A stretch of DNA of 40,853 nt from Candidatus Hydrogenedens sp. (GCA_049968235.1 JBMFRC010000025.1:1-40853), one strand, 5' to 3'. Numbered from the stretch's first letter, positions 3,958-20,286 are shown. Notes: generated by a model from the letters alone, not told the origin. Translations and numbers: made by a program.

Positions 3958-3979
3958 AGATACATAAAGGAAAGAATAT

Positions 3980-4729
3980 ATGAAGACACAAATAAAAAAT
4001 TTATTGGAATTACAGGATATTGATTTACAAATAGAAGCATTGCTCTCCAAAGAAAAAGAAATACCCAAACAGAAAGAAAAATTGCAAATACAGGAAAAAA
4101 AGTTAAAACAGGAAATAGAAGATAACGAAAAGACTCATAAAAAACTTATATTGGACCAGAGGGAATGTGAACGGCAAATTACCCAATTACAGGAACAAAT
4201 AAAAAAATATAACAATCAATTGCAAGGGGTAAAAAAGAACGAAGAATATCAGGCTTTGCTAAAAGAAATTGATGATATAAAAAAACAAATAGGGCTGAAG
4301 GAAGAAGAACAAATCAAAATAATGCTTCAAATGGACGAAGCAAATCTGTTCTTTCTGGAAGCAAAAAAAAGAATTGAAACAGAAATCCAGCAATTGAAAA
4401 AACAGGAGGAGAAAATAGATAAAGAACTTCAGGAAGTTATACAGGAACGGAAAGAACTGGAACAAAAAAAATTAGAGGCTCAAAAATCAGTTAACCCGGA
4501 ATTGCTCAGTCACTATTTACGAGTGAAACAAAGAAGGAAAACGGGACCTGTTGTTGTTCCATTAAAAGACGAAATTTGTTCCGGCTGTTATATGCAGATA
4601 CTCCCTCAGGTTGTAAATGAGATTATGGCAAGCGAGAAGATACACACATGCAGGCATTGTGGTAGAATTCTCTATTATCCAAATTTGCTCGATGAACAAG
4701 AGCCTGTTATCATTCCCGGTGATACATAA
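3980..4729 (+). CDS. Coiled-coil protein with C-terminal C4 zinc ribbon (COG1579/zf-RING_7-like)
   Basis: Long K/E/Q-rich heptad-like region. C-terminal CSGCYMQ...CRHCGRIL forms a CxxC...CxxC ribbon. Confidence 0.65.
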   Translation: MKTQIKNLLELQDIDLQIEALLSKEKEIPKQKEKLQIQEKKLKQEIEDNEKTHKKLILDQRECERQITQLQEQIKKYNNQLQGVKKNEEYQALLKEIDDIKKQIGLKEEEQIKIMLQMDEANLFFLEAKKRIETEIQQLKKQEEKIDKELQEVIQERKELEQKKLEAQKSVNPELLSHYLRVKQRRKTGPVVVPLKDEICSGCYMQILPQVVNEIMASEKIHTCRHCGRILYYPNLLDEQEPVIIPGDT

Positions 4730-4776
4730 TATCCAAATCTATCTTTATGAAATATCTCATATAAAGAAAATTTTTT

Positions 4777-6081
4777 ATGGATGTCTATTCAAAAGGTTTG
4801 CCTGCTGAAGATATAGATTTTCTAAAAACACTGGTTTTACACGGTGTTAAATTGGGTCTGGAAAATATAAGGAATATCCTCTCCTATGTGGGAGATCCCC
4901 ATAAAAAATTTTTATCTATTCATGTAGGCGGGACAAATGGTAAAGGTAGTACAGTTGCTTATATTGATAGAATTTTTCGAGAGCAGGGTATTCGAACAGG
5001 AAAGTTTACAAGTCCACACCTTATAGATTTGGCAGAGCGGTTCCAAATAAATGGACAGCCGATACCTTCTGAAGACTTACATGAACAAATCTTTTTCTTT
5101 AAAAAAATTACGGAAGAAATTGGAACACTTCCAACATTTTTTGAATTTTGCACTGCGATTGCTTTCCATTGGTTTGCTTTACAAAAAGTAGAATGGGCGA
5201 TAGTTGAAGTTGGAATGGGAGGAAGATTGGACTCTACCAATGTAATAACCCCTGAGGTCTGTGCAATTACCAATATTGGATTGGAACATACGCAGTATCT
5301 CGGTGATACAGTAGAAAAAATTGCATGGGAAAAGGCAGGGATTATAAAAGAGAAAATACCGGTAGTTATCGGTGAAAAAAAACAAGAAGCAATAAATGTT
5401 TTTTATAAAAAGACAAAAGATTTATCTTCTCCATTATGGCAAATAGAAAAGGATTTTTATATTCAATGGGAAAGAACTCTGGAAGGAGCAAAACTAACAT
5501 ATAAAAGTCCTGTTCGAGAGATAAAAGGAGCCTTCTCAAGACTTTCCGCATTATATCAGCGTGAAAATGCAGGAGTAGCCATAGCGGTGATAGATTGGCT
5601 TAGCCAGAGAGGTGTTACGATAAAAGAAAATGCTCTTCTTCGCGGGCTCGCAAACGCACATTGGCCCGGAAGATTTGATGTAATTTCTCAATCTCCATGG
5701 ATATTATTAGACTCCGCCCATAATCCGGATGGGATGGAAAGGTTGGTAGAAAACCTTGAAGATAAAATGCTGGTAGTGTTCTCTGTCGCAGATGATAAAA
5801 ATGTTGAAGATATTATCAAAATACTGACACCCCATGTCGATGAGTTTATAATCACTCAATTTTACGGAAAACGAGCCATGTCTACGGATAAAATAAAAGA
5901 AATAGTTGCAAAAACAAATGTCCCTTTTTTTATTGAACAGGATTTTCATTCTGCTCTGGAACATGGCTGGCAAAAAGCCCAACAAGGACAAAAATTGCTT
6001 ATTACAGGTTCTATCTATGCAATTGGACAGACCTATGAATGGCTTATTAATAAAGGAGTGATAAAGAAAATAGAGTTTTAA
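4777..6081 (+). CDS. folC: Folylpolyglutamate synthase / dihydrofolate synthase (Mur ligase family)
   Basis: HVGGTNGKGST P-loop and the layout of the Mur-ligase middle and C-terminal domains. Correct length. Confidence 0.85.
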   Translation: MDVYSKGLPAEDIDFLKTLVLHGVKLGLENIRNILSYVGDPHKKFLSIHVGGTNGKGSTVAYIDRIFREQGIRTGKFTSPHLIDLAERFQINGQPIPSEDLHEQIFFFKKITEEIGTLPTFFEFCTAIAFHWFALQKVEWAIVEVGMGGRLDSTNVITPEVCAITNIGLEHTQYLGDTVEKIAWEKAGIIKEKIPVVIGEKKQEAINVFYKKTKDLSSPLWQIEKDFYIQWERTLEGAKLTYKSPVREIKGAFSRLSALYQRENAGVAIAVIDWLSQRGVTIKENALLRGLANAHWPGRFDVISQSPWILLDSAHNPDGMERLVENLEDKMLVVFSVADDKNVEDIIKILTPHVDEFIITQFYGKRAMSTDKIKEIVAKTNVPFFIEQDFHSALEHGWQKAQQGQKLLITGSIYAIGQTYEWLINKGVIKKIEF

Positions 6082-6148
6082 CTCCATCTTTTTTTAATAT
6101 ATACTCTAATTCATATTGTTTAATTTATAAAATTTGGAGAAAAATAAT

Positions 6149-7132
6149 ATGGCAAAGAAAATTCGAGTAGGTTTTATCGGTGCCGGAGGTATATCTATTT
6201 TGCACCATCATCGTTTCTCAACGATTAAACAAGCCGAAATAGTGGCATTAAACGAACCCAATTCAAGTTCTTTAGAAAGATTTTATAAACATTGTCCCGG
6301 TTCTGAAAGCCTACCTGTCTATTCGAGTTATAAGGATATGATAAAAAAAGAGAATCTGGACGCCGTAGTTATTTTAAGTCCTCATACCTTACATTATGAG
6401 CAAATTATGTATTCTTTAAATTGCGGTTTACATGTATTAACAGAGAAGCCAATGGTATGTTCCATTGGCCATGCAAAAGAGGTTATCCAGAAAGCCAAAA
6501 AAGTCAATAAAATCTTAATGATTTCCTATCAGAGACATTTCGAGCCACCATTCCGTTATATGCGGGAACAGGTACAAAAGGGTGCTATTGGAGAAGTTCA
6601 GTTTGTGCAGGCTTTATTGTCTCAGGAGTGGTTACGTTTAACACGCAATACATGGCGACAGATTCCGAAACTTTCCGGTGGCGGGCAATTAAACGACTCC
6701 GGTAGTCATTTCATTGATATTATGATGTGGATGACAGGTATGAAAGTAAAGGAAGTGTTTGCTAAGGTAGAAAAATTTGATGTGCCTGTGGATATTAACT
6801 CCGCTCTAACCTTAAAATTTGAGAACGGTGCTTTAGGAAACCTATCTGTTATTGGGAATGCACCAGGCTGGTATGAAGACCATACAATTGTAGGCAGTAA
6901 AGGGGCTTTATTCCTCAGACAGGGTATTGGTGTTTTACAGCAGGATGAATTAGGTAAACCTGTTAAAGTAAAACTTCCGAAAATGTCCAGCGACCCTGAC
7001 CGAAATTTTATTATGAGCATTTTAGGAAAAGAACAACCTGAAGTCCCACCCGAATGTGGACTGAGAACAATGGAAGTTACAGAGTCCGCATGGAAATCCG
7101 CAAAAACAGGCAAACCCATCCGTGTCCCATGA
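6149..7132 (+). CDS. Gfo/Idh/MocA family NAD(P)-dependent oxidoreductase, cytoplasmic
   Basis: IRVGFIGAGGI Rossmann motif and a GFO-type C-terminal alpha/beta domain. GGAG Shine-Dalgarno is placed for ATG 6149; ATG 6134 is an alternative start. No signal peptide. Confidence 0.85.
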   Translation: MAKKIRVGFIGAGGISILHHHRFSTIKQAEIVALNEPNSSSLERFYKHCPGSESLPVYSSYKDMIKKENLDAVVILSPHTLHYEQIMYSLNCGLHVLTEKPMVCSIGHAKEVIQKAKKVNKILMISYQRHFEPPFRYMREQVQKGAIGEVQFVQALLSQEWLRLTRNTWRQIPKLSGGGQLNDSGSHFIDIMMWMTGMKVKEVFAKVEKFDVPVDINSALTLKFENGALGNLSVIGNAPGWYEDHTIVGSKGALFLRQGIGVLQQDELGKPVKVKLPKMSSDPDRNFIMSILGKEQPEVPPECGLRTMEVTESAWKSAKTGKPIRVP

Positions 7133-9199: not shown

Positions 9200-9312
9200 T
9201 TTTTTGCAACCATGAGAATTTATTTTTTCTATGTATTTATGCTACAATATGGATTGTTTCAACAAATCTCCTATCGTTCAAGATTAAAAACCTTTTTTTG
9301 GAGGAAAAATTT

Positions 9313-10413
9313 ATGCGTATGGTTCAAGTTCTTTTTATTTCAGCCATGTTATTGGTTGGTGGCTATTCCGCAATGGCTCAGGATGTTGCTGAAGGACAGT
9401 GGATAAACCTGTTCGATGGCGAATCTCTTTTCGGCTGGGTTCAGTTCGGTGATGTTGACTGGAGTGTTCAAAACGGTGTTCTTACTGCAACAAAAGGTAG
9501 TGGTGGATGGCTTGCTACCACCTGTCCCTTTGCTAATTTTGAATTATCAGCAAAGGTAAAGGTATCCGGCGATGGCACTGCTGGACTGGCGATTCGGGTT
9601 CCATTAGAAGGGCATTATTCGGACAATGGTGGAGGTGCCATTATATTGCAAGCCGGTGGCGAATATGATATTTCTGTTAGGGCAGTAGGAAATTCTGTAT
9701 CAGCATCCGTTAATGGCAATCCTGTAGAAGGATTAAATATCACCAATGCCAAAGGACACATCGGTATTCTCTATCATAAATATCATGATAAGAAAAAGCC
9801 TGCTAAAATCGAAGTACAATCCATAAAATTAAAACCTGTTCAACTAAAATCTTTATTCAATGGTGTTGACCTCACAGGCTGGAATATTATTCCCGACCAT
9901 AAATCTGTTTTCTCGGTTGTTGATGGTGCATTGAATATTAAAGATGGCAATGGGCAGATTGAAACGGCGGATGTATATAAAGATTTCCTTTTACAATTAG
10001 ATATTTTCGTAAACGGTAAAGCACTAAACAGTGGTGTATTCTTCCGTGGTCCGAAAGGTGTATTCTGGAAAGGTTATGAGTCTCAGGTCAAGAACGCATG
10101 GCTTAGTAACGACCGCACAAAACCCGTAGACTTTGGAACTGGTGGAATTTATGGTGTTCAAGAATCACGCAAAGTTGTATCAAACGATAAGGAATGGTAT
10201 ACCAAGACTATCGTTTGTGATGGGAATCACATGGCAGTGTGGTTAAACGGCTATTTAGTAAGTGATTTATATGATACTCGCCCTGTTCATCCTGAAGGAG
10301 ATGGTAAAAATGGTTATGTCCCATCCGCAGGAACCATACATTTACAAGGACACGACCCGACAACTGATTTGTCATTCAAAAACATAAATATACAGGTATA
10401 TCCTGAGAAATAA
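9313..10413 (+). CDS. Secreted tandem DUF1080 (PF06439, 3-keto-disaccharide-hydrolase-like) beta-sandwich protein
   Basis: Signal peptide ending AMAQ. Two repeated modules matching the DUF1080 pattern: WINLFDGESLFGW...GDVDWSVQNGVL, and SLFNGVDLTGWNIIPDHKSVFSVVDGAL...GHDPTTDLSFKNINIQ. GGAGG Shine-Dalgarno precedes ATG 9313; the ORF track extends to TTG 9298. Confidence 0.7.
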   Translation: MRMVQVLFISAMLLVGGYSAMAQDVAEGQWINLFDGESLFGWVQFGDVDWSVQNGVLTATKGSGGWLATTCPFANFELSAKVKVSGDGTAGLAIRVPLEGHYSDNGGGAIILQAGGEYDISVRAVGNSVSASVNGNPVEGLNITNAKGHIGILYHKYHDKKKPAKIEVQSIKLKPVQLKSLFNGVDLTGWNIIPDHKSVFSVVDGALNIKDGNGQIETADVYKDFLLQLDIFVNGKALNSGVFFRGPKGVFWKGYESQVKNAWLSNDRTKPVDFGTGGIYGVQESRKVVSNDKEWYTKTIVCDGNHMAVWLNGYLVSDLYDTRPVHPEGDGKNGYVPSAGTIHLQGHDPTTDLSFKNINIQVYPEK

Positions 10414-10478: not shown

Positions 10479-10672
10479 AGGGGATTATTTGTACTACTTG
10501 CGTCTAACAAAGTAGTAGAAACATTTTCCCTTTTATACTCTTTTAATCTATTCACACCCATGCGATACCCTTTATATACAGGCTTCTCTTTCTACATTTT
10601 TTGCAAAATGAATAACCAAAAAGATAACCTAATAAAAAGATGAAATTAAAAATTTTTTCAAGGAGATTGACA

Positions 10673-12115
10673 ATGGATACGAGGGCAACCCGTTATCAAA
10701 ATTGTTTAAAGCGATATGTTACCGCATTACGGAATGAAAAACCTGATTGTGTCCCTATTCGCCCATTTGTAGCGGAGTTCACTGCCCATTATTGCGGATT
10801 TACCTGCCAACAGGTAACCCATGATTATCGAATTGCTTTTGATGCGGTTTGTCAAACAGTGCAAGATTTTGATTGGGATGCAGTCGTTCCGAATATGGTA
10901 TATGTATGGACGGGCTTGGCTCAATCTTTAGGCTTAAAATACTACGGAATTCCCGGGATTGAACTCGACCCAAATACAGGTTTTCAATACAAAGAACCGC
11001 CTGAAGACCAGGCGTTTATGAAAGAAGATGAATATGACGCATTAATTGCTGACCCAACCGGTTTTTTATACGAAAAATGGCTCCCTCGGGTATCGACGGA
11101 AGTAGTTGAACCGGGCAAGCCTGCAAAAGTAAGGACTTATCAAGCATTGGTAAAAACATCTATGGCAATGTATGACTACTTTTATGCATTCGGTCCTCAA
11201 TTTGAACGACTTAAAACCGAATGTGGAACCGCATCAGCCATTGCAGGGATTTTTAAAGCACCGTTAGATATTATTGCAGATAAATTGCGTGGTTATATCG
11301 GTTTAACGATGGATTTGTTAATTCAACCGGATAAAGTGCTAAAGGCATGTGAAGCCTTGATGCCACATCTATATCATGTGGCAAAAACTACGGCTGACCC
11401 TAATAAATTAGTTCCTATTGGTTTCTGGATGCATCGCGGTTGCACTCCATTTGTAACCCGGGAACAATTCCATAAATTTTACTGGTCCACATTGAAACCT
11501 ATTATTGAGGAACTCTGGTATGATAAACATCAGGTTCTATTCTATGCGGAAGGAAATTGGGATGAACACTTAGAATCTTTTGCAGAACTTCCCGAAAAAA
11601 GTATTGTGTTCCACATTGACCGTAGTTCTCCGGAAAAAGCAAAAGAGATATTAAGTGAAAAATTTTGTCTTAGCGGTGGTTTACCCAATGCACTTCTTGC
11701 TGTGGGAACACCTAAAGAAGTGCGTGAACATTGTAAAAAATTGATAAAACTTTTAGCACAAGATGGCGGATATATTATGGACGCCAGTGCTATTATACAA
11801 AATGATGCAAAGGTTGAGAATATTCAGGCTATGACAGAGGCAACCCGAGAATATGGAATATACAACGTACCAGCGTGGTCAGGAATTGATAAGATTTTAG
11901 ATAGTGAAATTGATAATTCAACACACGATGTCATACATAGACAAAAACCCTCATGGTTAACGGGCTATCCCCCTGCTGGTGTGTGTTTGCCCTGGCAAGA
12001 AAAACGGAAAGAAATACCCCAAATCAAGGGAGATGAATTATTAGTTGAACAAATCTGGAACGGAATCGAGGCACATGGCTATACCTTTATCTGGCAAATG
12101 TTACTTTCCTTTTAG
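10673..12115 (+). CDS. Uroporphyrinogen-decarboxylase (URO-D) family protein, long non-HemE-type paralogue
   Basis: N-terminal KRYVTALRNEKPDCVPIRPF and overall TIM-barrel URO-D/MtaA-like organisation. AAGGAG Shine-Dalgarno precedes ATG 10673; ATG 10640 is an alternative start. No heme-pathway context, so probably not HemE. Confidence 0.55.
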   Translation: MDTRATRYQNCLKRYVTALRNEKPDCVPIRPFVAEFTAHYCGFTCQQVTHDYRIAFDAVCQTVQDFDWDAVVPNMVYVWTGLAQSLGLKYYGIPGIELDPNTGFQYKEPPEDQAFMKEDEYDALIADPTGFLYEKWLPRVSTEVVEPGKPAKVRTYQALVKTSMAMYDYFYAFGPQFERLKTECGTASAIAGIFKAPLDIIADKLRGYIGLTMDLLIQPDKVLKACEALMPHLYHVAKTTADPNKLVPIGFWMHRGCTPFVTREQFHKFYWSTLKPIIEELWYDKHQVLFYAEGNWDEHLESFAELPEKSIVFHIDRSSPEKAKEILSEKFCLSGGLPNALLAVGTPKEVREHCKKLIKLLAQDGGYIMDASAIIQNDAKVENIQAMTEATREYGIYNVPAWSGIDKILDSEIDNSTHDVIHRQKPSWLTGYPPAGVCLPWQEKRKEIPQIKGDELLVEQIWNGIEAHGYTFIWQMLLSF

Positions 12116-12122: not shown

Positions 12123-13322
12123 GAAGATTAAATGTTTAAATTTCTTCGACTCTTTATTGTCTGGGCGATTGTATTTATCCTGATATTTTCAGTTTTGGAG
12201 TTAGGTTCTATTTTTTACATCCATTATTTTTTAGATGAAGAAGAATTCGGACATTATGCATCGGTCAAACAAATTGTCAATCGGATGCGAAAAAAATAGG
12301 GATTATTTTAAGATTACATTCCATTCCTATGTAGGGTATATGCCTACACCTAATTATAAGAAAGGGGAGAATAAACATAACTCATATGGATTTCGTGGAG
12401 AAGAATTGAGTAATAAAAAAGAGGGGGAAATCTGGATAGCCTGTTTGGGGGAATCTACAACATACGACTCTGACCTAGAATGCTGGGAGAAAGCCTATCC
12501 TGCCCAATTAGAAAGATACCTGAACGAACAGGGAATCAAAGCGAAAGTTATCAATACGGGAGTGGACGGCTGGACCAGTTTTGAAATTTTGATTGATTTC
12601 AATCTCCGTGTTTCACGCTTACCTATTGATATAATAATTTACTATGGCGGATTCAATGATATAATATTTACCCGGTTGGTGTATCCAATCCCTGAGAAAC
12701 CATTAGAGAGAGATATTACACATGCTCGTTGGGGAATAGACGGTATGTTTCTTTATCCCTTCTGGGAAAATAGTTCTATACTACGAATTATACTTGTGAA
12801 ATTTAGACATATTATTCCGCATTTTGACCTATTTTTATGCATTTAAGCACGGAAAATCATTTTACAGAGTTCGTTGTCCAATTATTGAACCATTCCTACC
12901 CCAAAGGTATTTTTAAGGATACTCCAGTAGAAAAAATGTTGTTAAACAATCCTCCAATATGGTTTGAACAAAACTTAACTAATCTTGTTTTACTTGCTAA
13001 ATCCAAATCGATAATTCCTGTTTTAACTACTTATGCTTTAAACAAATCCGGACATAATAATCATTTCATAGCAAGGGATGCCGAATCTATTTCTATTATT
13101 AATCAAATTATGACATCTGCCATAAAAGAAATGAATGCCGTCATAGAAAAAACCGCAACAGAACAACATATCCCTTTTATAGATATAGATAATTCCTATC
13201 CTGTTGACGGAAATCTATTTACTGATTTGATTCACAATAATGAGCAAGGAGCCAGAGTAAAAGCAGAGTTAATTGGTAAGTTTTTGATTGATTCAGGACT
13301 TGTAAAATTTAAATACCATTAA
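12123..13322 (+). pseudogene. Membrane-anchored SGNH/GDSL-family hydrolase interrupted by two +/-1 frameshifts (three ORF fragments: 12123-12290, 12235-12846, 12837-13322)
   Basis: Fragment 1 encodes a TM anchor, MFKFLRLFIVWAIVFILIFSVLEL.... Fragment 2 carries SGNH block I (IACLGESTTYDSD) and block III (YYGGFNDI). Fragment 3 carries block V (DLIHNNEQG, a DxxH motif). Frame changes map to an A7 run (12281-12287) and a T5 run (12832-12836). Removing or adding one base restores a continuous ~399-aa reading frame. Confidence 0.6.
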
Positions 13323-13518: not shown

Positions 13519-14637
13519 ATGCTATATGACACATCTTATACAGGCTTGTCTCCTCAGGGTAAAAATATAAAGCGAATGATGTTTTATGACTATCCAAAGT
13601 GGGTCCCTGTGGAGGTCTTTTTTTTACCTGCCTGCTTAAACAAATACAAGACAGATATGAATGACCTAATGGAAAGGCACAGACGATTATTCCCTCAATA
13701 TGATAGAGTTGATAAAAATAGTTCTGTGGAATACAAAGATTTTTATGTTGAAGGTGATGTTACCGATTGTTGGGGATGCATTTGGAAAAATTTACATGGG
13801 GGTATGGTCGGAAAAGTAGTAGGGCATCCGCTGGAAAATTGGGACTATTTTGAAGAATGGAAAAAACATATCCCCAGTCCGGAAACGGATGGTATTTTGG
13901 GACCTAAGGATTGGAATGGTATAGCAAAAGACATTCAAAATAAAAAGGAAGAAGGTATTTTCTCTCCAGATTTCCCACTCCCTCATGGATTCCATTTTAT
14001 GCTTCTCTGGGATTTGCGAGGTTTTGAAAATTTTATGTTAGATATGCTTACAGAAGAACCCCGTCTTATGGAATTAATACATATTATCATGGAGTATAAC
14101 AACTATTCTGTAAGAAGAATATTGGATTTGAAAACACCCTTTTTAGGACTTGCAGAGGATTTGGGAATACAAAATAATTTACCTATTAGTAAAGAATTAT
14201 GGGATAGATATGTAAAACCGGGTTATGAAATAACTGTAGGCGAAGCCAGAAAACGCGGAATCCCTGTTTATTTACATTCTGATGGACATATTTTACCTAT
14301 CATACAGGAACTCATTGATATGGGAGTAACCTTGCTCAATCCACAGTCTCGTGCCAATGGTATTTACCCACTGCGAGAGCAGGTTTTTAGAAAGGTAGCT
14401 ATAAATCTTGACCTTGACCGTCAATTATTCCCTGTTGCAGAAAAATCCGATATACAAAGACATGTCCATGAAATTTTTAATGCCTTTTATCTCCCGGAAG
14501 GAGGTTTAATGTTGAATATTGAAATTAATGAAGATGTTCCACTTGAGATAATGGATTATTTATTCTCAATTGTAGAAGATTATTGTTCACTGCCTAATCC
14601 TGAAGATACGAATTTTTCAAAAATAGGATTGTTTTAA
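13519..14637 (+). CDS. Uroporphyrinogen-decarboxylase (URO-D) family protein, second paralogue
   Basis: C-terminal GIPVYLHSDGHILPIIQELIDMGVTLLNPQ resembles the URO-D/MtaA barrel end. AAAGGAG Shine-Dalgarno lies 7 nt upstream. Confidence 0.5.
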   Translation: MLYDTSYTGLSPQGKNIKRMMFYDYPKWVPVEVFFLPACLNKYKTDMNDLMERHRRLFPQYDRVDKNSSVEYKDFYVEGDVTDCWGCIWKNLHGGMVGKVVGHPLENWDYFEEWKKHIPSPETDGILGPKDWNGIAKDIQNKKEEGIFSPDFPLPHGFHFMLLWDLRGFENFMLDMLTEEPRLMELIHIIMEYNNYSVRRILDLKTPFLGLAEDLGIQNNLPISKELWDRYVKPGYEITVGEARKRGIPVYLHSDGHILPIIQELIDMGVTLLNPQSRANGIYPLREQVFRKVAINLDLDRQLFPVAEKSDIQRHVHEIFNAFYLPEGGLMLNIEINEDVPLEIMDYLFSIVEDYCSLPNPEDTNFSKIGLF

Positions 14638-14746: not shown

Positions 14747-15322
14747 ATGATTTACTACCAACAAATAGCAAAGCAATGGGACCGATTAAATGCTCTTTCC
14801 CCAGAAGATTCGAAAATGCTAAACAACTCAATTGAAGATGGGGTTTTTGAGGGTTTTAATCAATTTTCCACACAATTAATGAATAATCTAACGAGAGACT
14901 TTCCAATTGTGAACAATTTAGCATATCACGATATAAAACAAATAAAATCAGGTTTCTCAAACGCGGTATTTTCAGGATATCTTATTTATGTTGCGTATCA
15001 AATAATTTCAAATATAAAAAGACCTTTGTTTCAACAGGGTTTTAAATATGACCCCACAGTAATGAATGAATACAATGATATAATTGTTCCTGAACGACCT
15101 AATGTTAAAAGCGAAAGATTTTTCAGTATACTTGATGAACATCCCGCTATCGAACTCCTTTTTGAAAAGGTAACATCTATAGAATTAAATATCTTAAGAA
15201 AAAATAATCCGGGTATAGGTGATTTGTCCGCTAATATAGGGTTTATGATAAAAGACCTTATGGCTCGTGGAGTATTTATGGGCTATGGGCTTGGTTTCGC
15301 AGAAAATTGTCTAAGAGGATAG
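14747..15322 (+). CDS. Hypothetical protein (191 aa), no family recognised; low-GC codon usage
   Basis: Clean ORF with its own start, flanked by AT-rich spacers. No motif recognised. Confidence 0.45.
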   Translation: MIYYQQIAKQWDRLNALSPEDSKMLNNSIEDGVFEGFNQFSTQLMNNLTRDFPIVNNLAYHDIKQIKSGFSNAVFSGYLIYVAYQIISNIKRPLFQQGFKYDPTVMNEYNDIIVPERPNVKSERFFSILDEHPAIELLFEKVTSIELNILRKNNPGIGDLSANIGFMIKDLMARGVFMGYGLGFAENCLRG

Positions 15323-15534
15323 AGTTAAAATTCTTCAATATCCTTACATGTAATATAATAAATAAGCAATAAGTATAATTTTGATGATGTATTTTTTTTT
15401 TTAAATATTACAAATATCACAAAAACTCAGATAATAGATATAAAACAATAGAATTAAATATACTTATGTTTCTAAAGATGTTATTTACAATTTAATCAGA
15501 TAATAAAAATTATCGAAAAACAAATCTGGGCATT

Positions 15535-16473
15535 ATGAAGGGTATGAAAATGAAAAATGGTTCTTTATTTCTCTGTATATTATTTTTAATATTATTTCCT
15601 ATGATTGTTTCGGCGGAAAGTATTAATCTCACAATAACCGATGAATTTCTATCTTTTTTGTGTGGTCCTCGAAAAATTGCAGATTATCGCTATACAAAAG
15701 TGCCTTTTAAACCATATCTCAAAAGATTTTTTACCCCATCTGGAATACAAATTCTGGAAGATGCTCCTCATGACCACTTACATCATCATGGGTTAATGTT
15801 CGCTGTCGCAGTTAATGATATAAATTACTGGGAGGAAATCGAAAAAAGTGGACATCAAATCCATCAGCAATTCTCCAATATCAATGTAAATGAAAAATTA
15901 CCAATTCCAATGAGTTCTTTTGTCGAAGAATTAGTATGGAAAAGTCCCGGAAATGATGCTCCGCAATTAACAGAGATACGAAAAATTTCCTCCGGTTATT
16001 GGGAACAAGAAAATGCAAATATAATTCTCTGGGAAACACAATTAAAGAATCCATCAGACACAAATACTGCAAAACTTACAGGGCATCATTATTTTGGATT
16101 GGGGATAAGGCTTTTAACAACACCATTAGAAAATGTGGAAATAATATCTCCTGCTGAGGATAATCTTGAGAACGTACGGGGCGATGAATACCTGCGCAGT
16201 ACGCCGTGGTGTGCCGTTGTAGTTAAGAATGAAACGGGTACTTTTACCTTATTGATAATTGATTCGCCGGAGAGTGTGCGTTATCCGGCTCGTTGGTTTA
16301 CCATGCGAATGCCTTTCGTGTATATTTCTGCAACCCGAAATTTATGGAAAGAACCACTTGAAATATCACCCGGAGATAGAGTTTTGTGTAAATGTATATT
16401 TGTTTTATGGGATGGTGAAAAGACAAAAGAGGCACTGGGGAAGGCTGTAGAAGAAATCAATAGTAAAAAATAA
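15535..16473 (+). CDS. Secreted PmoA-like (DUF6807/PF14100-like) protein
   Basis: Signal peptide (LFLCILFLILFPMIVSA). His-rich motif DAPHDHLHHHGLMFAVAVND resembles the DHPHHRGLWF signature of the PmoA-like family that commonly neighbours Gfo/Idh/MocA genes. Assigned from memory of the family, not verified. Confidence 0.55.
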   Translation: MKGMKMKNGSLFLCILFLILFPMIVSAESINLTITDEFLSFLCGPRKIADYRYTKVPFKPYLKRFFTPSGIQILEDAPHDHLHHHGLMFAVAVNDINYWEEIEKSGHQIHQQFSNINVNEKLPIPMSSFVEELVWKSPGNDAPQLTEIRKISSGYWEQENANIILWETQLKNPSDTNTAKLTGHHYFGLGIRLLTTPLENVEIISPAEDNLENVRGDEYLRSTPWCAVVVKNETGTFTLLIIDSPESVRYPARWFTMRMPFVYISATRNLWKEPLEISPGDRVLCKCIFVLWDGEKTKEALGKAVEEINSKK

Positions 16474-16494
16474 ATTTTCATAAGGAGAATACCT

Positions 16495-17775
16495 ATGAAA
16501 CAATCTCAGACAAATCAAAATCAAGGTATAAGTCGTCGAACTTTTATCAAAACTACAACTGCAGGACTTATTGCCACTGCAAGTGTGTCCGCAGTGAAAA
16601 GTGCAACCGCTCAAAATAACCGATTAGGTATTGGTGTAATAGGCTGTGGTGGCAGAGGAAGTTATTTATCTCAGGTAATAAAGCATTTGCAGGATAATGA
16701 TAAAACAGTCCAATTCAAAGCCTTTTGTGATATATATCGCCCCCGATTGAATAAATTAGCGGATATTTACGGGGGAAAGAAGTATATGGATTATCGTGAA
16801 TTACTAAATGACAAAGAGGTAGATGTTGTAATTATTGCCACCCCCGACCACCACCATGCTCGCCAGACAATAGAAGCGGTAAAAGCAGGCAAGCATGTGT
16901 ATTGTGAAAAGCCCATGACACACTGGACGCAATGGGAATTGGCAAAGCAAATGACAGAAACAGTAAGACAGTCCAATTGTGTTTTCCAGATAGGTACACA
17001 AGCCATGTCCGATAGTGTATGGAAACAAATGAAAGAATTGGTAGAACAAGGGAAAATTGGTCAGCCTGTGCATGTAGAATGCGGATATTTTCGTTTAGGG
17101 GATTGGGGTGAAAGAGGTATGCCGATTGATGACCCGAATGCTAAGCCAGGTCCCGATTTAAATTGGGATGCATTTTTAGAAGATGCTCCGAAACGGGATT
17201 TTGATGTAAGTCGCTTTTTCCGCTGGAGAATGTATGCGGACTATGCCGGTGGTATGTCCACAGATTTGTATCCGCATATATTAACGCCTGTTGTTTATAC
17301 TATCGGAGTACATATGCCGAAGATTGTTGTAGGTATCGGTGGAAAATTACGCTATGAAGAAAGGGAAATCCCGGATACTTTTGATATGCTCATTAACTAT
17401 AACGATAAAACGGACTTGGCACTTTTAGGTACTCAGGCAAATGAATATCAGGGGACCGCACTTCGCGGGCAGAATCGTGTTCCCGTTATTCGGGGTTGGG
17501 AAGGCACATTAACGATAAATGAGGAAAACATAGTTTACTGGCCTGCCAATGCTTTGAAAACTCAAAATCCAGAAAAAATACCCATTCAAAAAGGAGAAAA
17601 TTTAACGGATTATATCCGTAGTTTTATAGATTGTTGTATGCATAAGGACAAAAACACATTAAGCCCTATTGATATGGCTTTTGAAGTCCAGACAACATTG
17701 ATTATGGGTATGTTGTCATGGAAAGATAGTAAGATGTATACCTATAAAGATGATACAGGACCCGTAGCCTTATAA
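16495..17775 (+). CDS. Tat-secreted Gfo/Idh/MocA family oxidoreductase (glycoside/sugar dehydrogenase type)
   Basis: Twin-arginine signal SRRTFIKTTTAGLIATASVSA. GIGVIGCGGRG Rossmann motif. EKP catalytic region (YCEKPMT). AAGGAGAA Shine-Dalgarno. Confidence 0.85.
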   Translation: MKQSQTNQNQGISRRTFIKTTTAGLIATASVSAVKSATAQNNRLGIGVIGCGGRGSYLSQVIKHLQDNDKTVQFKAFCDIYRPRLNKLADIYGGKKYMDYRELLNDKEVDVVIIATPDHHHARQTIEAVKAGKHVYCEKPMTHWTQWELAKQMTETVRQSNCVFQIGTQAMSDSVWKQMKELVEQGKIGQPVHVECGYFRLGDWGERGMPIDDPNAKPGPDLNWDAFLEDAPKRDFDVSRFFRWRMYADYAGGMSTDLYPHILTPVVYTIGVHMPKIVVGIGGKLRYEEREIPDTFDMLINYNDKTDLALLGTQANEYQGTALRGQNRVPVIRGWEGTLTINEENIVYWPANALKTQNPEKIPIQKGENLTDYIRSFIDCCMHKDKNTLSPIDMAFEVQTTLIMGMLSWKDSKMYTYKDDTGPVAL

Positions 17776-17803
17776 TAAAACTCGAAATAGAAAGGATAAT
17801 TTT

Positions 17804-18643
17804 ATGGGAAAAATAGGTATCGGAATTAATATGGAATTTGTCCGACATGCAGACAAACCCTTTGAATGGGGTGTAGATAAAGCGGCTGAATTAGGCTATG
17901 AATATGTAGAACCTATGGTGCATTGGGGCAGAGAATTACTCAGCGAAGCAGGTTATTTTCATAGCGTTTCAATGTTAGATGACCCCTATCGAATTAAAAA
18001 GGCATGTGAAAATGCAGGGATTAAATTATCGGGACTTTCTTCTCATTCCCCTCTCTGTAAACCTGAAATTAGTACGGAATACTTGAAGCAGGGGGTTCGA
18101 TTTGCAGAGGAATGTGGTGCTCCTGTTATTAACACTGATGAAGGACCTAAACCTAAATGGACTACTGTGGAAGAAGACCATGTTTTGATGAGATATGTTC
18201 TTATGGAAGTTTGTGCAGTGGCGGAACCTCGTGGAATTTTAATCGGATTAGAACCTCATCAGCAATATAGTAAATCCCCCGAAGGATTAGACCGAATTTA
18301 TTCTCTCGTAAAATCTCCCATTTTAGGTATCAATTTTGACACGGGTAATAGTTTTTTAAGTGGACAGGACCCCATTGCCTGGTTGGAACATGTGAGTGAT
18401 AGATTGGTGCATTTACATGCAAAAGATATAGCCTTGCAACAGGCGGAAGCAGAACGAGGAAAAGTAACCGGAACACCGGTGGGATGTGCTTGCGGGGATG
18501 GAGTTATTGACTGGACAAAAGTTATATCCATTTTAAAAAAATCGCCTCGCAACATTGTAATGAGTGTCGAATGTGGAACAATTGAACAGGCGGAACGCAG
18601 TATAAAATATCTGAAAGAATTATTGAAGAAAATCGAAGATTAA
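17804..18643 (+). CDS. Sugar phosphate isomerase/epimerase (xylose-isomerase-like TIM barrel) family protein
   Basis: Pattern typical of the AP-endonuclease-2/xylose-isomerase-like TIM barrel: GYEYVEP, metal-ligand-like E/H/D residues (LHAKD, GINFDTGN), and length ~280 aa. The start lies 28 nt after the oxidoreductase stop. Confidence 0.75.
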   Translation: MGKIGIGINMEFVRHADKPFEWGVDKAAELGYEYVEPMVHWGRELLSEAGYFHSVSMLDDPYRIKKACENAGIKLSGLSSHSPLCKPEISTEYLKQGVRFAEECGAPVINTDEGPKPKWTTVEEDHVLMRYVLMEVCAVAEPRGILIGLEPHQQYSKSPEGLDRIYSLVKSPILGINFDTGNSFLSGQDPIAWLEHVSDRLVHLHAKDIALQQAEAERGKVTGTPVGCACGDGVIDWTKVISILKKSPRNIVMSVECGTIEQAERSIKYLKELLKKIED

Positions 18644-18660
18644 TTGAGAATATTGTTTTG

Positions 18661-18712
18661 GACCCCGAATAAGGAATTAATAAATCTATTCGGGGTCTAT
18701 TTTTATATTTTT
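18661..18712 (+). terminator. Rho-independent terminator after the three-gene PmoA-like/oxidoreductase/TIM-barrel operon
   Basis: Stem GACCCCGAATA/TATTCGGGGTC with a 15-nt loop, followed by TATTTTTATATTTTT. Confidence 0.65.
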
Positions 18713-18837: not shown

Positions 18838-20286
18838 ATGAAACAGAAAATATCGCAAATTTGGTTTTCTTTGGTATTGATATTCTTAACACTACCAGTT
18901 GTCCAAGCACAGGATTCCATTTCAAATGCCCAAAAATCGGATGTAAAACAATCAGTGACAACCCTTCAAGACCAGATGGATGTTGCTGTTACGATATATA
19001 ACAATGACCGTGCACTGGTAAGGGAAAAACGGAAAATAAAATTACCCCGGGGGGAAAGTTATTTAAAATTTATGGATGTGCCGGAGCATATTCTTCCTGA
19101 GACAGTAAGTCTAAAATCCTTAATACAGGCAGGGAGTTTACAAATTCTGGAACAAAATTATGAATATGATTTAATTAGTCCATCCAAATTGATGGAAAAG
19201 TATGTGGGTAAGGAGGTAAAACTGGTAAATAAGAATAAAGATATGGATTTTTATGAAGTTACTGCGAAACTGTTAAGTGTAAACGAATCCCCAGTATTTC
19301 AGGTAGAAAATCAGATTTATTTGGGACATCCGGGAAATGTTGTTTTGCCAGAACTCCCATCAGAATTGATTGCGAAACCTACATTAATATGGATGCTGGA
19401 TAATAAATTAGAAGAACAGGAATTGGAGGCTACCTATTTGACCTCAGGTATTTCATGGAAGGCAGATTATGTACTTGTATATGATGAACCTAAAAATGCA
19501 ATGGATTTAGAAGGCTGGATAACACTTAATAATAACTCCGGTGCTACTTATCAGAACGCAAAATTAAAATTGGTAGCAGGGGAAGTGAATATTGTTCCTG
19601 TCCAGGCACCTGCACCCATGATGGACCGTATGATGGTAGGTGCGGCAAAATCTATGGAAGTTCGAGAGGAATCGTTCGCTGAGTATCACCTCTATACCGT
19701 ACCACGAAGAACAACAATTAAACAAAATCAATCAAAGCAGGTAAGTCTGTTATCTGCCAATGGTGTCAAGGCAAATAAAATTTATGAATATCGTGGAAAT
19801 ACCGCATTCTATAATAGCCAGATGAATCCTATCCGGAACGAGAATATTGATACTTTTTTAATTTTTAAGAATGCAGAAAATAACCAGTTAGGATTACCTT
19901 TGCCGGAGGGGATTATTCGTGTGTATCAAGAAGATAGTGAAGAAATGTTACAATTTGCAGGCGAAGACCGTATTAAACATACACCCAAAGATGAAGAAGT
20001 TCGATTACGATTAGGAAAAGCGTTTGATATAATTGGTGAAAGAACCCAGACAGATTTTCAGAAATTAGGTCCTAATATTGTAGAATGTGAATTTGAAGTT
20101 ACTATAAGAAATCACAAGAAAAATGATATTACGGTAGATATTGTGGAACCGATGATAGGCGACTGGCAAATTGTTAAATCATCTATGGATTATGAAAAGA
20201 AAGATGCTTTTTCCGTAATTTTCCATGTGCCTGTGAAAACCGAAGGTTCCGGAAAAGTGTCTTATCGTGTGCGAATTCGGTTCTAA
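18838..20286 (+). CDS. Secreted DUF4139 family protein (DUF4140 N-terminal region; 'mucoidy inhibitor MuiA'-type conserved hypothetical)
   Basis: Signal peptide. N-terminal VTIYNNDRALVREKRKIKLPRGESYLKFMDVPEHILPETVSL resembles the DUF4140/DUF4139 family architecture. Length ~480 aa. Confidence 0.55.
   Translation: MKQKISQIWFSLVLIFLTLPVVQAQDSISNAQKSDVKQSVTTLQDQMDVAVTIYNNDRALVREKRKIKLPRGESYLKFMDVPEHILPETVSLKSLIQAGSLQILEQNYEYDLISPSKLMEKYVGKEVKLVNKNKDMDFYEVTAKLLSVNESPVFQVENQIYLGHPGNVVLPELPSELIAKPTLIWMLDNKLEEQELEATYLTSGISWKADYVLVYDEPKNAMDLEGWITLNNNSGATYQNAKLKLVAGEVNIVPVQAPAPMMDRMMVGAAKSMEVREESFAEYHLYTVPRRTTIKQNQSKQVSLLSANGVKANKIYEYRGNTAFYNSQMNPIRNENIDTFLIFKNAENNQLGLPLPEGIIRVYQEDSEEMLQFAGEDRIKHTPKDEEVRLRLGKAFDIIGERTQTDFQKLGPNIVECEFEVTIRNHKKNDITVDIVEPMIGDWQIVKSSMDYEKKDAFSVIFHVPVKTEGSGKVSYRVRIRF

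What the first reader, a model, noticed from the sequence alone, without database searches (positions are those of the whole stretch)
15535..18712. Three-gene operon: secreted PmoA-like protein, Tat-exported Gfo/Idh/MocA oxidoreductase, xylose-isomerase-like TIM-barrel enzyme. Candidate periplasmic oxidative (3-keto) glycoside-processing module.
The three genes sit 21 and 28 nt apart on one strand. An AT-rich promoter region (15323-15534) lies upstream, and a strong terminator follows (18661-18712). Established knowledge: Tat-exported Gfo/Idh/MocA enzymes act as glycoside 3-dehydrogenases. Xylose-isomerase-like TIM barrels act as lyases/hydratases on 3-keto-glycosides. DUF1080/PF06439 proteins are 3-keto-disaccharide hydrolases. 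A tandem DUF1080 gene and a second Gfo/Idh/MocA gene lie 6-9 kb upstream in this window (6149-7132, 9313-10413). The PmoA-like partner has no assigned biochemical role. Its histidine-rich DHLHHHG motif suggests a metal site. The constant pairing of this protein family with Gfo/Idh/MocA dehydrogenases is not understood; it might act as an electron-acceptor or accessory subunit. This reads as a complete but functionally uncharacterised cassette.
Basis: partly seen in the sequence, partly recalled or inferred. Interest (0 to 1): 0.62.

Follow-up and report, generated by a model that had tools for sequence, protein, structure and literature searches.

The report
Conserved DUF6807–dehydrogenase–TIM barrel sugar operon
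A three-gene operon in an uncultured Hydrogenedens bacterium pairs an exported sugar dehydrogenase with an unstudied partner protein (DUF6807) and a highly conserved cytoplasmic enzyme; it is most likely a new version of the recently described "oxidise, then cut" route for breaking down glycosides, and it gives testable ideas for what DUF6807 does.

Summary
Three same-strand genes, 21 and 28 nt apart, follow a 17.9 % GC spacer and end at a 13-bp hairpin with a U-tract. They encode a Sec-exported DUF6807 protein, a Tat-exported Gfo/Idh/MocA (GFO) oxidoreductase and a xylose-isomerase-like TIM barrel.

- The GFO's nearest characterised relative is the BT2158/AL3 glycoside 3-dehydrogenase. It keeps 5 of 6 AL3 sugar-pocket residues but scores far below the equivalog cut-off.
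- DUF6807 sits next to such a GFO in 31 of 33 informative loci (15 of 15 sequence clusters). The TIM barrel lies within 6 kb in 28 of 33.
- DUF6807 is not PmoA-like. Its model (pLDDT 90) is a galactose-mutarotase-like β-sandwich with invariant His/His/Glu/Arg/Tyr/Arg residues.
- DUF6807 occurs fused to ThuA (partner of the ThuB disaccharide 3-dehydrogenase), to an enolase-superfamily domain and to cytochrome c.
- The TIM barrel has no signal peptide, so the module is not wholly periplasmic. It is 74–81 % identical across phyla where DUF6807 is only 25–39 %.

Best reading: an oxidative keto-sugar/glycoside module in which DUF6807 is a catalytic partner of the dehydrogenase. Its exact reaction is unresolved. 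I class it as a new variant of a known kind.

The parts
15323..15534 (+). AT-rich intergenic spacer and putative promoter region of the operon
   Evidence: 17.9 % GC against 36.5 % for the window. Three sigma-70-like hexamer pairs at 15407-15513, but the count is not above the shuffle expectation. No Rfam element.
15535..16473 (+). DUF6807 (PF14100) protein of 312 aa. Sec signal peptide about residues 1-27 (NCBI starts the gene at 15550). The mature part is predicted to be a galactose-mutarotase-like beta-sandwich with core residues D80, H81, H84, E101, E147, R149, Y186 and R192.
16482..16487 (+). Shine-Dalgarno-like AAGGAG, 7 nt upstream of the GFO start codon
   Evidence: Sequence read
16495..17775 (+). 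Tat-exported Gfo/Idh/MocA oxidoreductase of 426 aa. Twin-arginine motif SRRTFIK at residues 13-19 (nt 16531-16551), EKP lysine K139, D257-x3-H261, and AL3-like pocket residues Q169, R200 and W204.
17804..18643 (+). Xylose-isomerase-like TIM-barrel metalloenzyme (PF01261) of 279 aa with no signal peptide. Metal tetrad E150/D179/H205/E256 and an invariant C228-A-C230. It belongs to a very large and highly conserved orthogroup.
18659..18712 (+). Intrinsic terminator: 13-bp stem, 15-nt loop, U-rich tail
   Evidence: dG -19.6 kcal/mol, z -3.7; sequence
9298..10413 (+). Possibly related, not shown to be: Sec-exported protein with two DUF1080/PF06439 domains (family of the AL2/BT2157 3-keto-alpha-glucoside lyase/hydratase). 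It is syntenic with the operon throughout Hydrogenedentes.
   Evidence: A DUF1080 gene lies within 6 kb of DUF6807 in 21 of 33 loci.
6134..7132 (+). Possibly related, not shown to be: cytoplasmic Gfo/Idh/MocA oxidoreductase, in the position of AL4/BT2159 but not a member of that equivalog (42 against 650 bits)

Best explanation
The three genes form one transcription unit encoding a conserved module for stepwise oxidative processing of sugars or glycosides.

Proposed mechanism:
1. The Tat-exported GFO enzyme, folded around a bound NAD(P) before export, oxidises a ring hydroxyl of a periplasmic glycoside to a ketone. By analogy with AL3/BT2158 this is most likely C3. The family assignment and the conserved pocket are shown; the substrate and regiochemistry are inferred.
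2. The Sec-exported DUF6807 protein works directly with this dehydrogenase on the keto-sugar. It is a sugar-binding, probably metal-dependent enzyme with a mutarotase-type beta-sandwich and an invariant His-His-Glu / Arg / Tyr / Arg constellation. It either catalyses beta-elimination and/or hydration (a functional analogue of the AL1/AL2 lyases), or it converts the released 3-keto-sugar into the ring form that the enzyme-bound NAD(P)H can reduce. Either activity would close a redox-neutral cycle. All of this step is inferred.
3. The cytoplasmic TIM-barrel metalloenzyme acts on a small, invariant keto-sugar product after uptake, by metal-assisted enolate chemistry (epimerisation, isomerisation, dehydration or hydration). 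Acting on an invariant product would explain why it is far more conserved than its two exported partners. This step is inferred from its location and conservation.
For: Operon anatomy.

Families.

GFO:
- The top NCBIfam hit is the BT_2158 glycoside 3-dehydrogenase family (E 2e-40), well above IolG and others.
- The top PDB hits are 8tdf/8tdh at E 1e-26 and DgpA at 4e-23.
- Five of six AL3 sugar-pocket residues align and are kept in 52-57 of 57 DUF6807-adjacent GFOs.
- The RR motif is invariant.

Linkage:
- Adjacent GFO in 31 of 33 loci and 15 of 15 clusters; TIM barrel within 6 kb in 28 of 33 loci and 11 of 15 clusters.
- Gene order is shuffled between phyla, which argues for selection rather than inherited synteny.
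- The pairing also holds for cytoplasmic versions in Nonomuraea.
- Starting from TIM orthologues, 2 of 3 sampled loci have DUF6807 next door.

DUF6807 as an enzyme:
- H81, H84, E147, R149, Y186 and R192 are invariant in 32 of 32 diverse members.
- Fusions to ThuA (three, plus L100), to an enolase-superfamily domain, and to the carbohydrate-binding PA14 and F5/8-C domains.

Precedent:
- The AL/BT pathway has a Tat-GFO with tightly bound NAD that is recycled by reducing 3-keto-glucose.
- That system is slow in vitro and the authors suspected a missing component. 3-keto-glucose isomerises to an inactive furanose form.
- In Caulobacter, cytoplasmic 'sugar epimerases' plus a reductase are genetically required downstream of periplasmic 3-keto-glycoside cleavage.

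TIM barrel: 74-81 % identity across phyla against 25-39 % for DUF6807 and 40-57 % for the GFO. It has no signal peptide and an intact E-D-H-E tetrad.
Against: - No biochemical data exist for any DUF6807 protein and none has a solved structure.
- The GFO is far below the BT2158 equivalog cut-off (139 against 750 bits). Only profile positions 1-271 of 487 align, and the sixth pocket residue (AL3 Tyr349) could not be aligned. Substrate and regiochemistry are therefore open.
- The TIM barrel shows no preferential similarity to AL1/BT1 lyases.
- No transporter is encoded in the operon to link the periplasmic and cytoplasmic steps.
- Fusion to an enolase-superfamily domain fits an aldose-1-oxidation or sugar-acid pathway as well as a 3-keto pathway.
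- Fusion to cytochrome c domains hints at a redox role in some relatives.
- I could not inspect model coordinates, so it is not shown that the invariant residues form one pocket.
- The neighbourhood sample covers mainly relatives at 33 % identity or more. The wider family rests on a few examples.
Confidence: 0.55

Rival explanations
1. DUF6807 is a redox or recycling accessory of the exported dehydrogenase. It would bind a metal through its histidine cluster and re-oxidise the GFO's trapped NAD(P)H, passing electrons on to cytochromes or quinones.
For: The Tat-GFO with non-exchangeable NAD needs a re-oxidant, and cytochromes were suggested as one option. One relative, P0222, fuses DUF6807 to PA14 and several cytochrome c domains, with cytochrome-containing neighbours. 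ThuA, another unexplained GFO partner, is fused to DUF6807. The pairing with GFO is constant.
Against: The fold is a sugar-binding mutarotase-type sandwich, not a known redox fold. There are no CxxCH proteins in the window or in 90 of 91 loci. Candidate copper ligands C226, M88 and M257 are lost in distant members. The pairing persists in cytoplasmic actinobacterial versions, where NAD exchanges freely. CBM-type fusions (PA14, F5/8-C) are typical of carbohydrate-active enzymes.
Confidence: 0.15
2. The module is an aldose-1-oxidation or sugar-acid pathway, not a 3-keto pathway. The GFO would oxidise a free aldose at C1 to a lactone. DUF6807 would be a divergent mutarotase or a metal-dependent lactonase. 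The TIM barrel would work downstream, in other lineages together with an enolase-type dehydratase.
For: Mutarotase-like fold. An MR_MLE (enolase superfamily)-DUF6807 fusion is directly followed by a GFO in L096, and the same families are neighbours in the Lac161 cosmid. GFO-family aldose 1-dehydrogenases exist, for example the Gfo6 model hit.
Against: The GFO scores much better against the glycoside 3-dehydrogenase family (139 bits) than against xylose 1-dehydrogenase Gfo6 (50 bits). AL3-type pocket residues are conserved. ThuA fusions point to 3-keto-disaccharide chemistry. There is no profile similarity to GalM, and the GalM-like catalytic-His position (H185) is not conserved.
Confidence: 0.15
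3. The GFO is itself a complete NAD-dependent glycosidase of the GH109/GH4 type, doing oxidation, elimination, hydration and reduction in one active site. DUF6807 is then a non-catalytic carbohydrate-binding or scaffolding partner.
For: GH109 enzymes are Tat-exported proteins with the GFO fold, and a GH109 chain is hit (6t2b, E 2.7e-6). In other lineages the neighbours include sulfatases and GH-like genes. Mutarotase-like sandwiches are often non-catalytic domains of glycoside hydrolases.
Against: Similarity to GH109 is about 20 orders of magnitude weaker than to AL3. DUF6807 has many invariant polar residues, typical of an active site. It is an independent, separately exported protein.
Confidence: 0.08
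4. The module is a cyclitol/inositol-type pair (IolG-like dehydrogenase plus IolE-like dehydratase) with an unrelated neighbour.
For: Second-best NCBIfam hits are IolG (96 bits) for the GFO and IolE (44.7 bits) for the TIM barrel. IolE structures are among the top fold matches.
Against: Both scores are far below their cut-offs of 355 and 290 bits. The GFO is Tat-exported. No other iol genes are in the window. DUF6807 co-conservation would be left unexplained.
Confidence: 0.05

Closest known systems
AL1-AL4 / BT2156-BT2159 stepwise glycoside-cleavage system of Alistipes and Bacteroides thetaiotaomicron (Nasseri et al., bioRxiv 10.1101/2024.03.25.586180; Liu et al. 2021, PMC8121099)
   Same: Both have a Tat-exported GFO dehydrogenase, and the window's GFO is closest to this family, with 5 of 6 pocket residues kept. 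Both have a PF01261 TIM-barrel metalloenzyme in the same gene cluster. In the window an exported DUF1080 protein and a cytoplasmic second GFO lie 6-9 kb away.
   Different: The AL/BT clusters have no DUF6807. The window's GFO is not an equivalog (139 against 750 bits; 426 against about 487 aa). The TIM barrel here is cytoplasmic, whereas AL1 has a Sec signal, and it is no closer to AL1 than to ketose epimerases. DUF1080 is not in the operon.
ThuAB disaccharide (trehalose/sucrose/maltitol) 3-dehydrogenase of Sinorhizobium and Agrobacterium
   Same: A GFO-family dehydrogenase (ThuB) depends on a partner of unknown mechanism (ThuA). ThuA is found fused to DUF6807 in at least four relatives, in two cases next to the same TIM orthologue and a Tat-GFO.
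   Different: The window has no ThuA domain. DUF6807 has a mutarotase-like sandwich fold, and ThuA is a separate Pfam family (PF06283).
Aldose 1-epimerase / galactose mutarotase superfamily (GalM, YeaD hexose-6-phosphate mutarotase, PnsB2)
   Different: Sequence identity is 6-12 % and there is no profile similarity (hhalign probability 0.7 %). The GalM His/His/Asp/Glu catalytic set is not recognisably kept. DUF6807 has its own invariant set (H81, H84, E147, R149, Y186, R192).
GFO + TIM-barrel pairs of other keto-sugar pathways: DgpA/DgpBC (C-glycosides), LgdA/LgdB (levoglucosan), IolG/IolE (inositol)
   Same: The chemical logic is the same: a GFO enzyme makes a ring ketone and a PF01261 metal enzyme does enolate chemistry next to it. 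DgpA, levoglucosan dehydrogenase and IolG all appear in the GFO hit lists.
   Different: Those systems are cytoplasmic and lack DUF6807. All scores are far below family cut-offs.
PmoA, subunit of particulate methane monooxygenase (former name of PF14100)
   Same: Nothing beyond the historical database label.
   Different: From general knowledge, PmoA is a polytopic membrane protein. The protein here is a soluble all-beta sandwich behind a cleavable signal peptide.

Membership tests
Pfam PF14100 (DUF6807, formerly 'PmoA') | Score above the Pfam gathering threshold over the full-length model | tested here: met
   121.3 bits against a cut-off of 27, covering profile positions 4-268 of 270.
Particulate methane monooxygenase PmoA | Integral membrane protein with several transmembrane helices | tested here: not met
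   The AF2 model is all-beta apart from the signal peptide and one C-terminal helix. The fold matches soluble mutarotase-like sandwiches.
Gfo/Idh/MocA oxidoreductases | N-terminal Rossmann domain (PF01408), the EKP lysine and a D-x3-H catalytic pair | tested here: met
   PF01408 at 90.3 bits against a cut-off of 24. E138-K139-P140 and D257/H261 align to AL3 and are conserved in partner GFOs.
BT_2158 family glycoside 3-dehydrogenase (NCBIfam NF058561, equivalog) | Score at or above the curated cut-off of 750 bits over the whole 487-position model | tested here: not met
   138.8 bits, covering only profile positions 1-271. It is the closest named family, but the protein is not a member.
BT_2158/AL3-type glycoside 3-dehydrogenase (works-like criteria) | Twin-arginine export signal | tested here: met
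   SRRTFIK followed by a hydrophobic region and AxA. RR is kept in 57 of 57 partner GFOs.
BT_2158/AL3-type glycoside 3-dehydrogenase (works-like criteria) | AL3 sugar-pocket residues Gln161, Arg192, Trp195, Asp248, His252 and Tyr349 | tested here: inconclusive
   Five of six align as Q169, R200, W204, D257 and H261. Tyr349 lies in the unaligned C-terminal half.
BT_2158/AL3-type glycoside 3-dehydrogenase (works-like criteria) | Tightly bound, non-exchanging NAD and C3 regiochemistry | not testable with these tools
   Needs purified protein and NMR or kinetic analysis.
Pfam PF01261 xylose-isomerase-like TIM barrel | Score above the gathering threshold, and the divalent-metal tetrad | tested here: met
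   106.1 bits against 31.1. E150, D179, H205 and E256 are invariant and align to MJ1311. The model is a TIM barrel with pLDDT 89.
AL1/BT2156 3-keto-beta-glucoside 1,2-lyase | Specific sequence or structural relationship to AL1/BT1, and export to the periplasm | tested here: not met
   Not hit by the TIM profile in the PDB at E <= 0.01. Foldseek ranks it 13th at 18 % identity, behind UlaE, IolE and a DTE-like protein. There is no signal peptide, whereas AL1 has one.
Aldose 1-epimerase (PF01263-type mutarotase) | Mutarotase beta-sandwich fold | tested here: met
Aldose 1-epimerase (PF01263-type mutarotase) | Detectable sequence homology and the conserved catalytic His/Glu pair | tested here: not met
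   hhalign against E. coli GalM gives probability 0.7 %. The His in the GalM-like 'HxYF' position (H185) is not conserved in distant DUF6807 members.
ThuAB-type system | Presence of a ThuA (PF06283) component | tested here: not met
   No ThuA domain in any window ORF. ThuA occurs only in relatives, either fused to DUF6807 or as a neighbour in 6 of 91 loci (about 4 distinct contexts).
Single operon | Same strand, short gaps, ribosome-binding sites and a flanking terminator; co-transcription | tested here: inconclusive
   The anatomy is met. The promoter signal is not above chance. Co-transcription needs RNA data.

The most novel reading that the evidence does not exclude
DUF6807 is a previously unrecognised enzyme class with a mutarotase-type fold and a His/His/Glu metal site, and it is the obligate catalytic partner of exported, NAD-locked GFO sugar dehydrogenases. 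It would either be a third, non-homologous type of 3-keto-glycoside lyase/hydratase, or a keto-sugar ring isomerase that supplies the 'missing component' which makes the redox-neutral oxidative glycosidase cycle fast. Together with an ultra-conserved cytoplasmic TIM-barrel enzyme, it would define a widespread two-compartment glycan-degradation pathway in Planctomycetota, Hydrogenedentota and relatives.
Probability: 0.35. Interest if true: 0.75.

Novelty: new variant of a known kind. Interest (0 to 1): 0.57.

Why it matters
Stepwise oxidative (non-Koshland) glycoside cleavage was only recently established, and its authors noted that a component was missing and that the rate-limiting step was recycling of the exported dehydrogenase's bound NAD.

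DUF6807 is a sizeable family: about 2,600 clusters at 50 % identity. It has no function, structure or literature. It is almost always encoded beside a Tat-exported GFO dehydrogenase and is sometimes fused to ThuA, the equally unexplained partner of the classical ThuB 3-dehydrogenase.

If DUF6807 is the lyase/hydratase or the recycling factor, three things follow:
- It would assign a function to two orphan families at once.
- It would extend the oxidative pathway to abundant environmental glycan degraders (Planctomycetota, Hydrogenedentota), where it is often linked to sulfatases.
- It would supply new broad-specificity biocatalysts.

The unusually conserved cytoplasmic TIM enzyme has more than 7,500 clusters at 90 % identity, and the 120 best-scoring are all 77-91 % identical to the window protein. 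That points to an unknown but very common keto-sugar intermediate.

Tried and rejected
- **Genome scan:** I ran the genome-contig scan with a single protein instead of an alignment. I compensated with the look-up of encoding contigs and a metagenome scan using alignment A1.
- **Literature:** searches for DUF6807, PF14100 and 'PmoA family' found no functional study. The Nature DOI of Nasseri et al. is not held, so I used the bioRxiv version.
- **Sequence search of the PDB with DUF6807:** a single-sequence search found nothing, and a profile search found only His-tag artefacts.
- **Homology to mutarotases:** hhalign of the DUF6807 profile against E. coli GalM gave no signal. The apparent 'GHHYFGL' versus GalM 'NHVYFNL' catalytic-His resemblance is rejected, because H185 is not conserved in distant members while Y186 is.
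- **Blue-copper-type site (His/Cys/Met):** rejected, because C226, M88 and M257 are lost in distant members.
- **Cytochrome c partner near the module:** there is no CxxCH in the window and only 1 of 91 loci has one.
- **Scans:** the promoter scan is not above chance and the terminator scan missed the real hairpin because of its loop limit. Rfam found only four tRNAs and no riboswitch.
- **Unavailable library:** the AFDB50 fold library was not available.
- **Plasmid collection:** a single weak hit, Nonomuraea, with an unannotated record. It was still useful after manual ORF reading.
- **TIM-barrel function:** the profile and fold searches could not discriminate lyase, hydratase, epimerase or dehydratase.
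- **Model coordinates:** the tools do not expose them, so I could not check whether the invariant residues cluster in three dimensions.

Full report
**Source and observation**

The window is a complete 40,853-bp contig of a Candidatus Hydrogenedens sp. metagenome-assembled genome. The DUF6807 protein is 100 % identical to an NCBI MAG protein whose longest contig has that same length.

AAGGAG and AAGGA ribosome-binding sites precede genes 2 and 3.

The 212-nt upstream spacer is 17.9 % GC against 36.5 % overall. Sigma-70-like hexamers there are no more frequent than in shuffles, so a promoter is plausible but not demonstrated.

Downstream there is a perfect 13-bp hairpin with a U-rich tail (18659-18712; dG -19.6 kcal/mol, z = -3.7). 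Rfam finds nothing but four tRNAs in the window.

**Families**

Pfam confirms DUF6807/PF14100 (121 bits), GFO_IDH_MocA plus C-terminal domains, and the xylose-isomerase-like TIM barrel PF01261 (106 bits).

- DUF6807 has a Sec-type signal peptide (…MIVSA|E).
- The GFO has a textbook SRRTFIK twin-arginine signal.
- The TIM barrel starts directly with its first beta-strand and has no signal.

Elsewhere in the window there is a cytoplasmic GFO (6134-7132) and a Sec-exported double-DUF1080 protein (9298-10413). The rest of the window is a mix of housekeeping genes and glycan-related genes: GH123-like, beta-helix and GH42-like.

**Is the triad conserved?**

I collected 91 loci encoding relatives of the DUF6807 protein. 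I called ORFs and searched them with iterated profiles of the window proteins.

Among the 33 loci with at least 5 kb on both sides:

| Feature near DUF6807 | Loci (of 33) |
|---|---|
| Same-strand GFO gene immediately adjacent | 31 |
| TIM barrel within 6 kb | 28 |
| DUF1080 gene within 6 kb | 21 |
| Adjacent Tat-sulfatase-like gene | 17 |

Collapsed at 70 % DUF6807 identity, 15 of 15 clusters have the adjacent GFO and 11 of 15 have the TIM barrel. Nearly all of these GFOs carry (S/T)RRxF.

Gene order differs between lineages:
- DUF6807-GFO-TIM in Hydrogenedentes.
- TIM-(sulfatase)-DUF6807-GFO-(DUF1080) in Phycisphaerae-like contigs.
- TIM-DUF6807-GFO in others.
- TIM-GFO-DUF6807 in one Planctomycetota MAG.

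. The linkage is therefore selected, not merely inherited synteny.

In Nonomuraea a GFO and a DUF6807 gene without signal peptides are adjacent, next to LacI regulators and a long ORF I read as GH3-like but did not check. The pairing is thus independent of compartment.

Going the other way, 2 of 3 sampled TIM orthologues have DUF6807 next door. Cultured Thermogutta terrifontis does not.

One caveat applies. The sample covers mostly relatives at 33 % identity or more, and the wider family (about 2,600 clusters at 50 % identity) was probed only by examples.

**The dehydrogenase**

Its best NCBIfam match is NF058561 'BT_2158_fam, glycoside 3-dehydrogenase' (E 2e-40). At 139 bits against a cut-off of 750, and covering only the first 271 of 487 profile positions, it is a relative and not a member.

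Its best solved relatives are 8tdf/8tdh (E about 1e-26), followed by the C-glycoside 3-oxidoreductase DgpA. Residue types in 8tdf match the AL3 residues named in the Nasseri et al. preprint at a constant offset of 29. I therefore infer that 8tdf is Alistipes AL3.

In the alignment, AL3 Gln161, Arg192, Trp195, Asp248 and His252 correspond to Q169, R200, W204, D257 and H261 here. These are kept in 52-57 of 57 DUF6807-adjacent GFOs. R200 and W204 have no aligned counterpart in the window's cytoplasmic GFO. Tyr349 lies in the unaligned C-terminal half.

**What is known about such systems**

In B. thetaiotaomicron and Alistipes the four components are:

| Protein | Family | Role |
|---|---|---|
| BT2158/AL3 | Tat-exported GFO | Oxidises glycosides at C3 using tightly bound NAD |
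| BT2156/AL1 | TIM barrel, Co2+, Sec signal | 3-keto-beta-glucoside 1,2-lyase |
| BT2157/AL2 | DUF1080 | 3-keto-alpha-glucoside lyase and 2-hydroxy-3-keto-glucal hydratase |
| AL4 | Cytosolic GFO | Dispensable in vitro |

The bound NADH is recycled by reducing the 3-keto-glucose product. The authors found the reconstituted system extremely slow and suspected a missing component. They also noted that 3-keto-glucose isomerises to an inactive furanose form.

In Caulobacter, cytoplasmic 'sugar epimerases' and a reductase are genetically required downstream of periplasmic 3-keto-lactose cleavage.

**DUF6807**

No paper in the library assigns it a function, and no solved structure matches by sequence.

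An AlphaFold2 model from a 74-sequence alignment is confident (pLDDT 90.4). It is an all-beta galactose-mutarotase-like supersandwich:
- Foldseek agrees but gives only remote hits.

The old name 'PmoA' is therefore a misnomer.

There is no profile-level homology to GalM.

Across 32 diverse members, P78, H81, H84, E147, R149, Y186, G188, L189 and R192 are invariant. These members include 22-25 % identical relatives and all the fusion proteins. D80, E101 and several Trp residues are nearly invariant. H185, C226, M88 and M257 are not. This rejects the GalM catalytic-His analogy and a blue-copper-type site.

Two His plus carboxylates, with Arg/Tyr/Arg and Trp, is what one expects of a metal-assisted sugar-enolate enzyme. 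I could not inspect the coordinates, so clustering of these residues is inferred.

**Domain fusions (Rosetta-stone evidence)**

Among the top profile hits, Pfam shows:
- ThuA-DUF6807 fusions in P0141, P0181 and P0234. P0234 also carries an F5/8-type C domain.
- DUF6807 + PA14 + several cytochrome c domains in P0222 (1,765 aa).
- DUF6807 + a PQQ-like beta-propeller.
- Fusions to an M14 peptidase and to FG-GAP repeats.

A further ThuA-DUF6807 fusion, and the P0141 one, each lie directly after a TIM barrel gene; the L095 one is 79 % identical to the window's TIM. A downstream gene starts 2-26 nt after each fusion; in L095 it opens with a Tat motif, GLTRRNF.

L096 holds an enolase-superfamily (MR_MLE)-DUF6807 fusion followed by a GFO. 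This echoes the neighbouring enolase-like and PF14100 genes of a Verrucomicrobia cosmid selected for lactose use.

ThuA is the unexplained partner of the GFO-type ThuB disaccharide 3-dehydrogenase (PMC8121099). The ThuA fusions are independent support for a role in 3-keto-glycoside chemistry. The enolase and cytochrome fusions keep two rivals alive.

**The TIM barrel**

It is conserved far more strongly than its partners. Identity to the window proteins across phyla is:

| Protein | Identity across phyla |
|---|---|
| TIM barrel | 74-81 % |
| GFO | 40-57 % |
| DUF6807 | 25-39 % |

The orthogroup is huge: more than 7,500 clusters at 90 % identity, and the 120 best-scoring are 77-91 % identical to the query. 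The E150/D179/H205/E256 metal tetrad and a C228-x-C230 pair are invariant.

Sequence profiles hit only MJ1311, Art22, IolE and 3tva, and not AL1/BT1. The model (pLDDT 89.4) is equidistant from L-xylulose-5-phosphate 3-epimerase, IolE, D-tagatose 3-epimerase, Art22, AL1 lyase (rank 13), DgpBC and the AtHYD hydratase.

I can therefore say only that it does metal-assisted chemistry next to a sugar carbonyl. A cytoplasmic location combined with extreme conservation fits an invariant small product of the variable periplasmic steps. That is inference.

**Synthesis**

The best-supported reading (confidence about 0.55) is a conserved oxidative keto-sugar/glycoside module in three steps:
1. The Tat-GFO oxidises a periplasmic glycoside, probably at C3.
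2. DUF6807 is its catalytic partner acting on the keto-sugar, either as a lyase/hydratase analogue or as a ring isomerase that feeds the NADH-loaded enzyme.
3. The cytoplasmic TIM enzyme handles the imported product.

The rivals are a redox or recycling accessory (0.15), an aldose-1-oxidation or sugar-acid pathway (0.15), a GH109-like self-sufficient glycosidase with a non-catalytic partner (0.08), and a cyclitol pathway (0.05).

The main corrections concern compartment, the 'PmoA' label, the TIM function and the host phylum.

**Novelty and interest**

This is a new variant of a known kind of system. It uses the known stepwise oxidative logic and a BT2158-like enzyme, but with an uncharacterised, tightly linked DUF6807 partner and a cytoplasmic, ultra-conserved TIM enzyme that the characterised systems lack.

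It is of moderate to good interest (0.57). It gives concrete, cheap experiments that could assign a function to DUF6807, and indirectly to ThuA. It could also explain the 'missing component' of the oxidative glycosidase pathway.

Noticed in passing
window 10640-12115 and 13519-14637; L010 about 1546-5447; L099 5048-6574; L007 15513-16694: Genes of corrinoid-methyltransferase type recur beside the DUF6807/GFO/TIM module in unrelated lineages. The window has two URO-D/MtaA-like (PF01208) genes between the DUF1080 gene and the operon. L010 and L099 have divergent B12-binding and pterin-binding genes directly upstream of the TIM gene, and L010 also has MTHFR. L007 has a URO-D gene. This may hint at processing of methylated sugars.
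   Followed up: no
window 12235-12846 and 12837-13322: One GDSL-lipase domain is split over two overlapping ORFs (Pfam profile positions 1-78 and 87-177). This is probably a frameshift, pseudogene or assembly error. An intact 270-aa version exists in the syntenic locus L006.
   Followed up: partly
window 17804-18643 and relatives (P0269-P0388): The TIM-barrel protein belongs to an exceptionally conserved and abundant orthogroup: more than 7,500 clusters at 90 % identity, with the best 120 all 77-91 % identical to the query. It spans Planctomycetota, Hydrogenedentota and FCB-group MAGs and has an invariant GCACG motif. In cultured Thermogutta terrifontis (CP018477) it stands apart from DUF6807/GFO and is flanked by PQQ_2 beta-propeller genes.
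   Followed up: partly
L096 14607-16736 and 6001-11298: A marine contig carries two unusual DUF6807 fusions 3 kb apart. One is MR_MLE (enolase superfamily)-DUF6807, directly followed by a GFO gene. The other is a 1,765-aa DUF6807 + PA14 + multi-cytochrome c protein. Nearby are a sulfatase and HZS_alpha/HEAT/cytochrome proteins.
   Followed up: partly
L008 6538-7980, L007 6508-7968, and about 17 of 33 loci: In Phycisphaerae-like lineages a Tat-signal sulfatase gene is inserted directly upstream of DUF6807, between TIM and DUF6807. PQQ-like beta-propeller and HEAT-repeat proteins lie nearby. This suggests sulfated glycans are the substrates there. The window has no such sulfatase.
   Followed up: partly
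window 32367-35198 (- strand): A 943-aa protein combines a papain-family C1 cysteine peptidase domain with PASTA repeats, which is an uncommon architecture.
   Followed up: no
window 14747-15322 and 18838-20286: The operon is flanked by a 191-aa protein with no Pfam or NCBIfam hit, seen only in close Hydrogenedens relatives, and by an exported DUF4139/DUF4140 (MuiA-like) protein. Both are syntenic only within Hydrogenedentes and are probably not part of the module.
   Followed up: partly
window 1-900 and 40268-40354: There are four tRNA genes: three at the start of the contig (357-430 on the - strand, 586-660 and 760-832 on the + strand) and one near the end (40268-40354).
   Followed up: no
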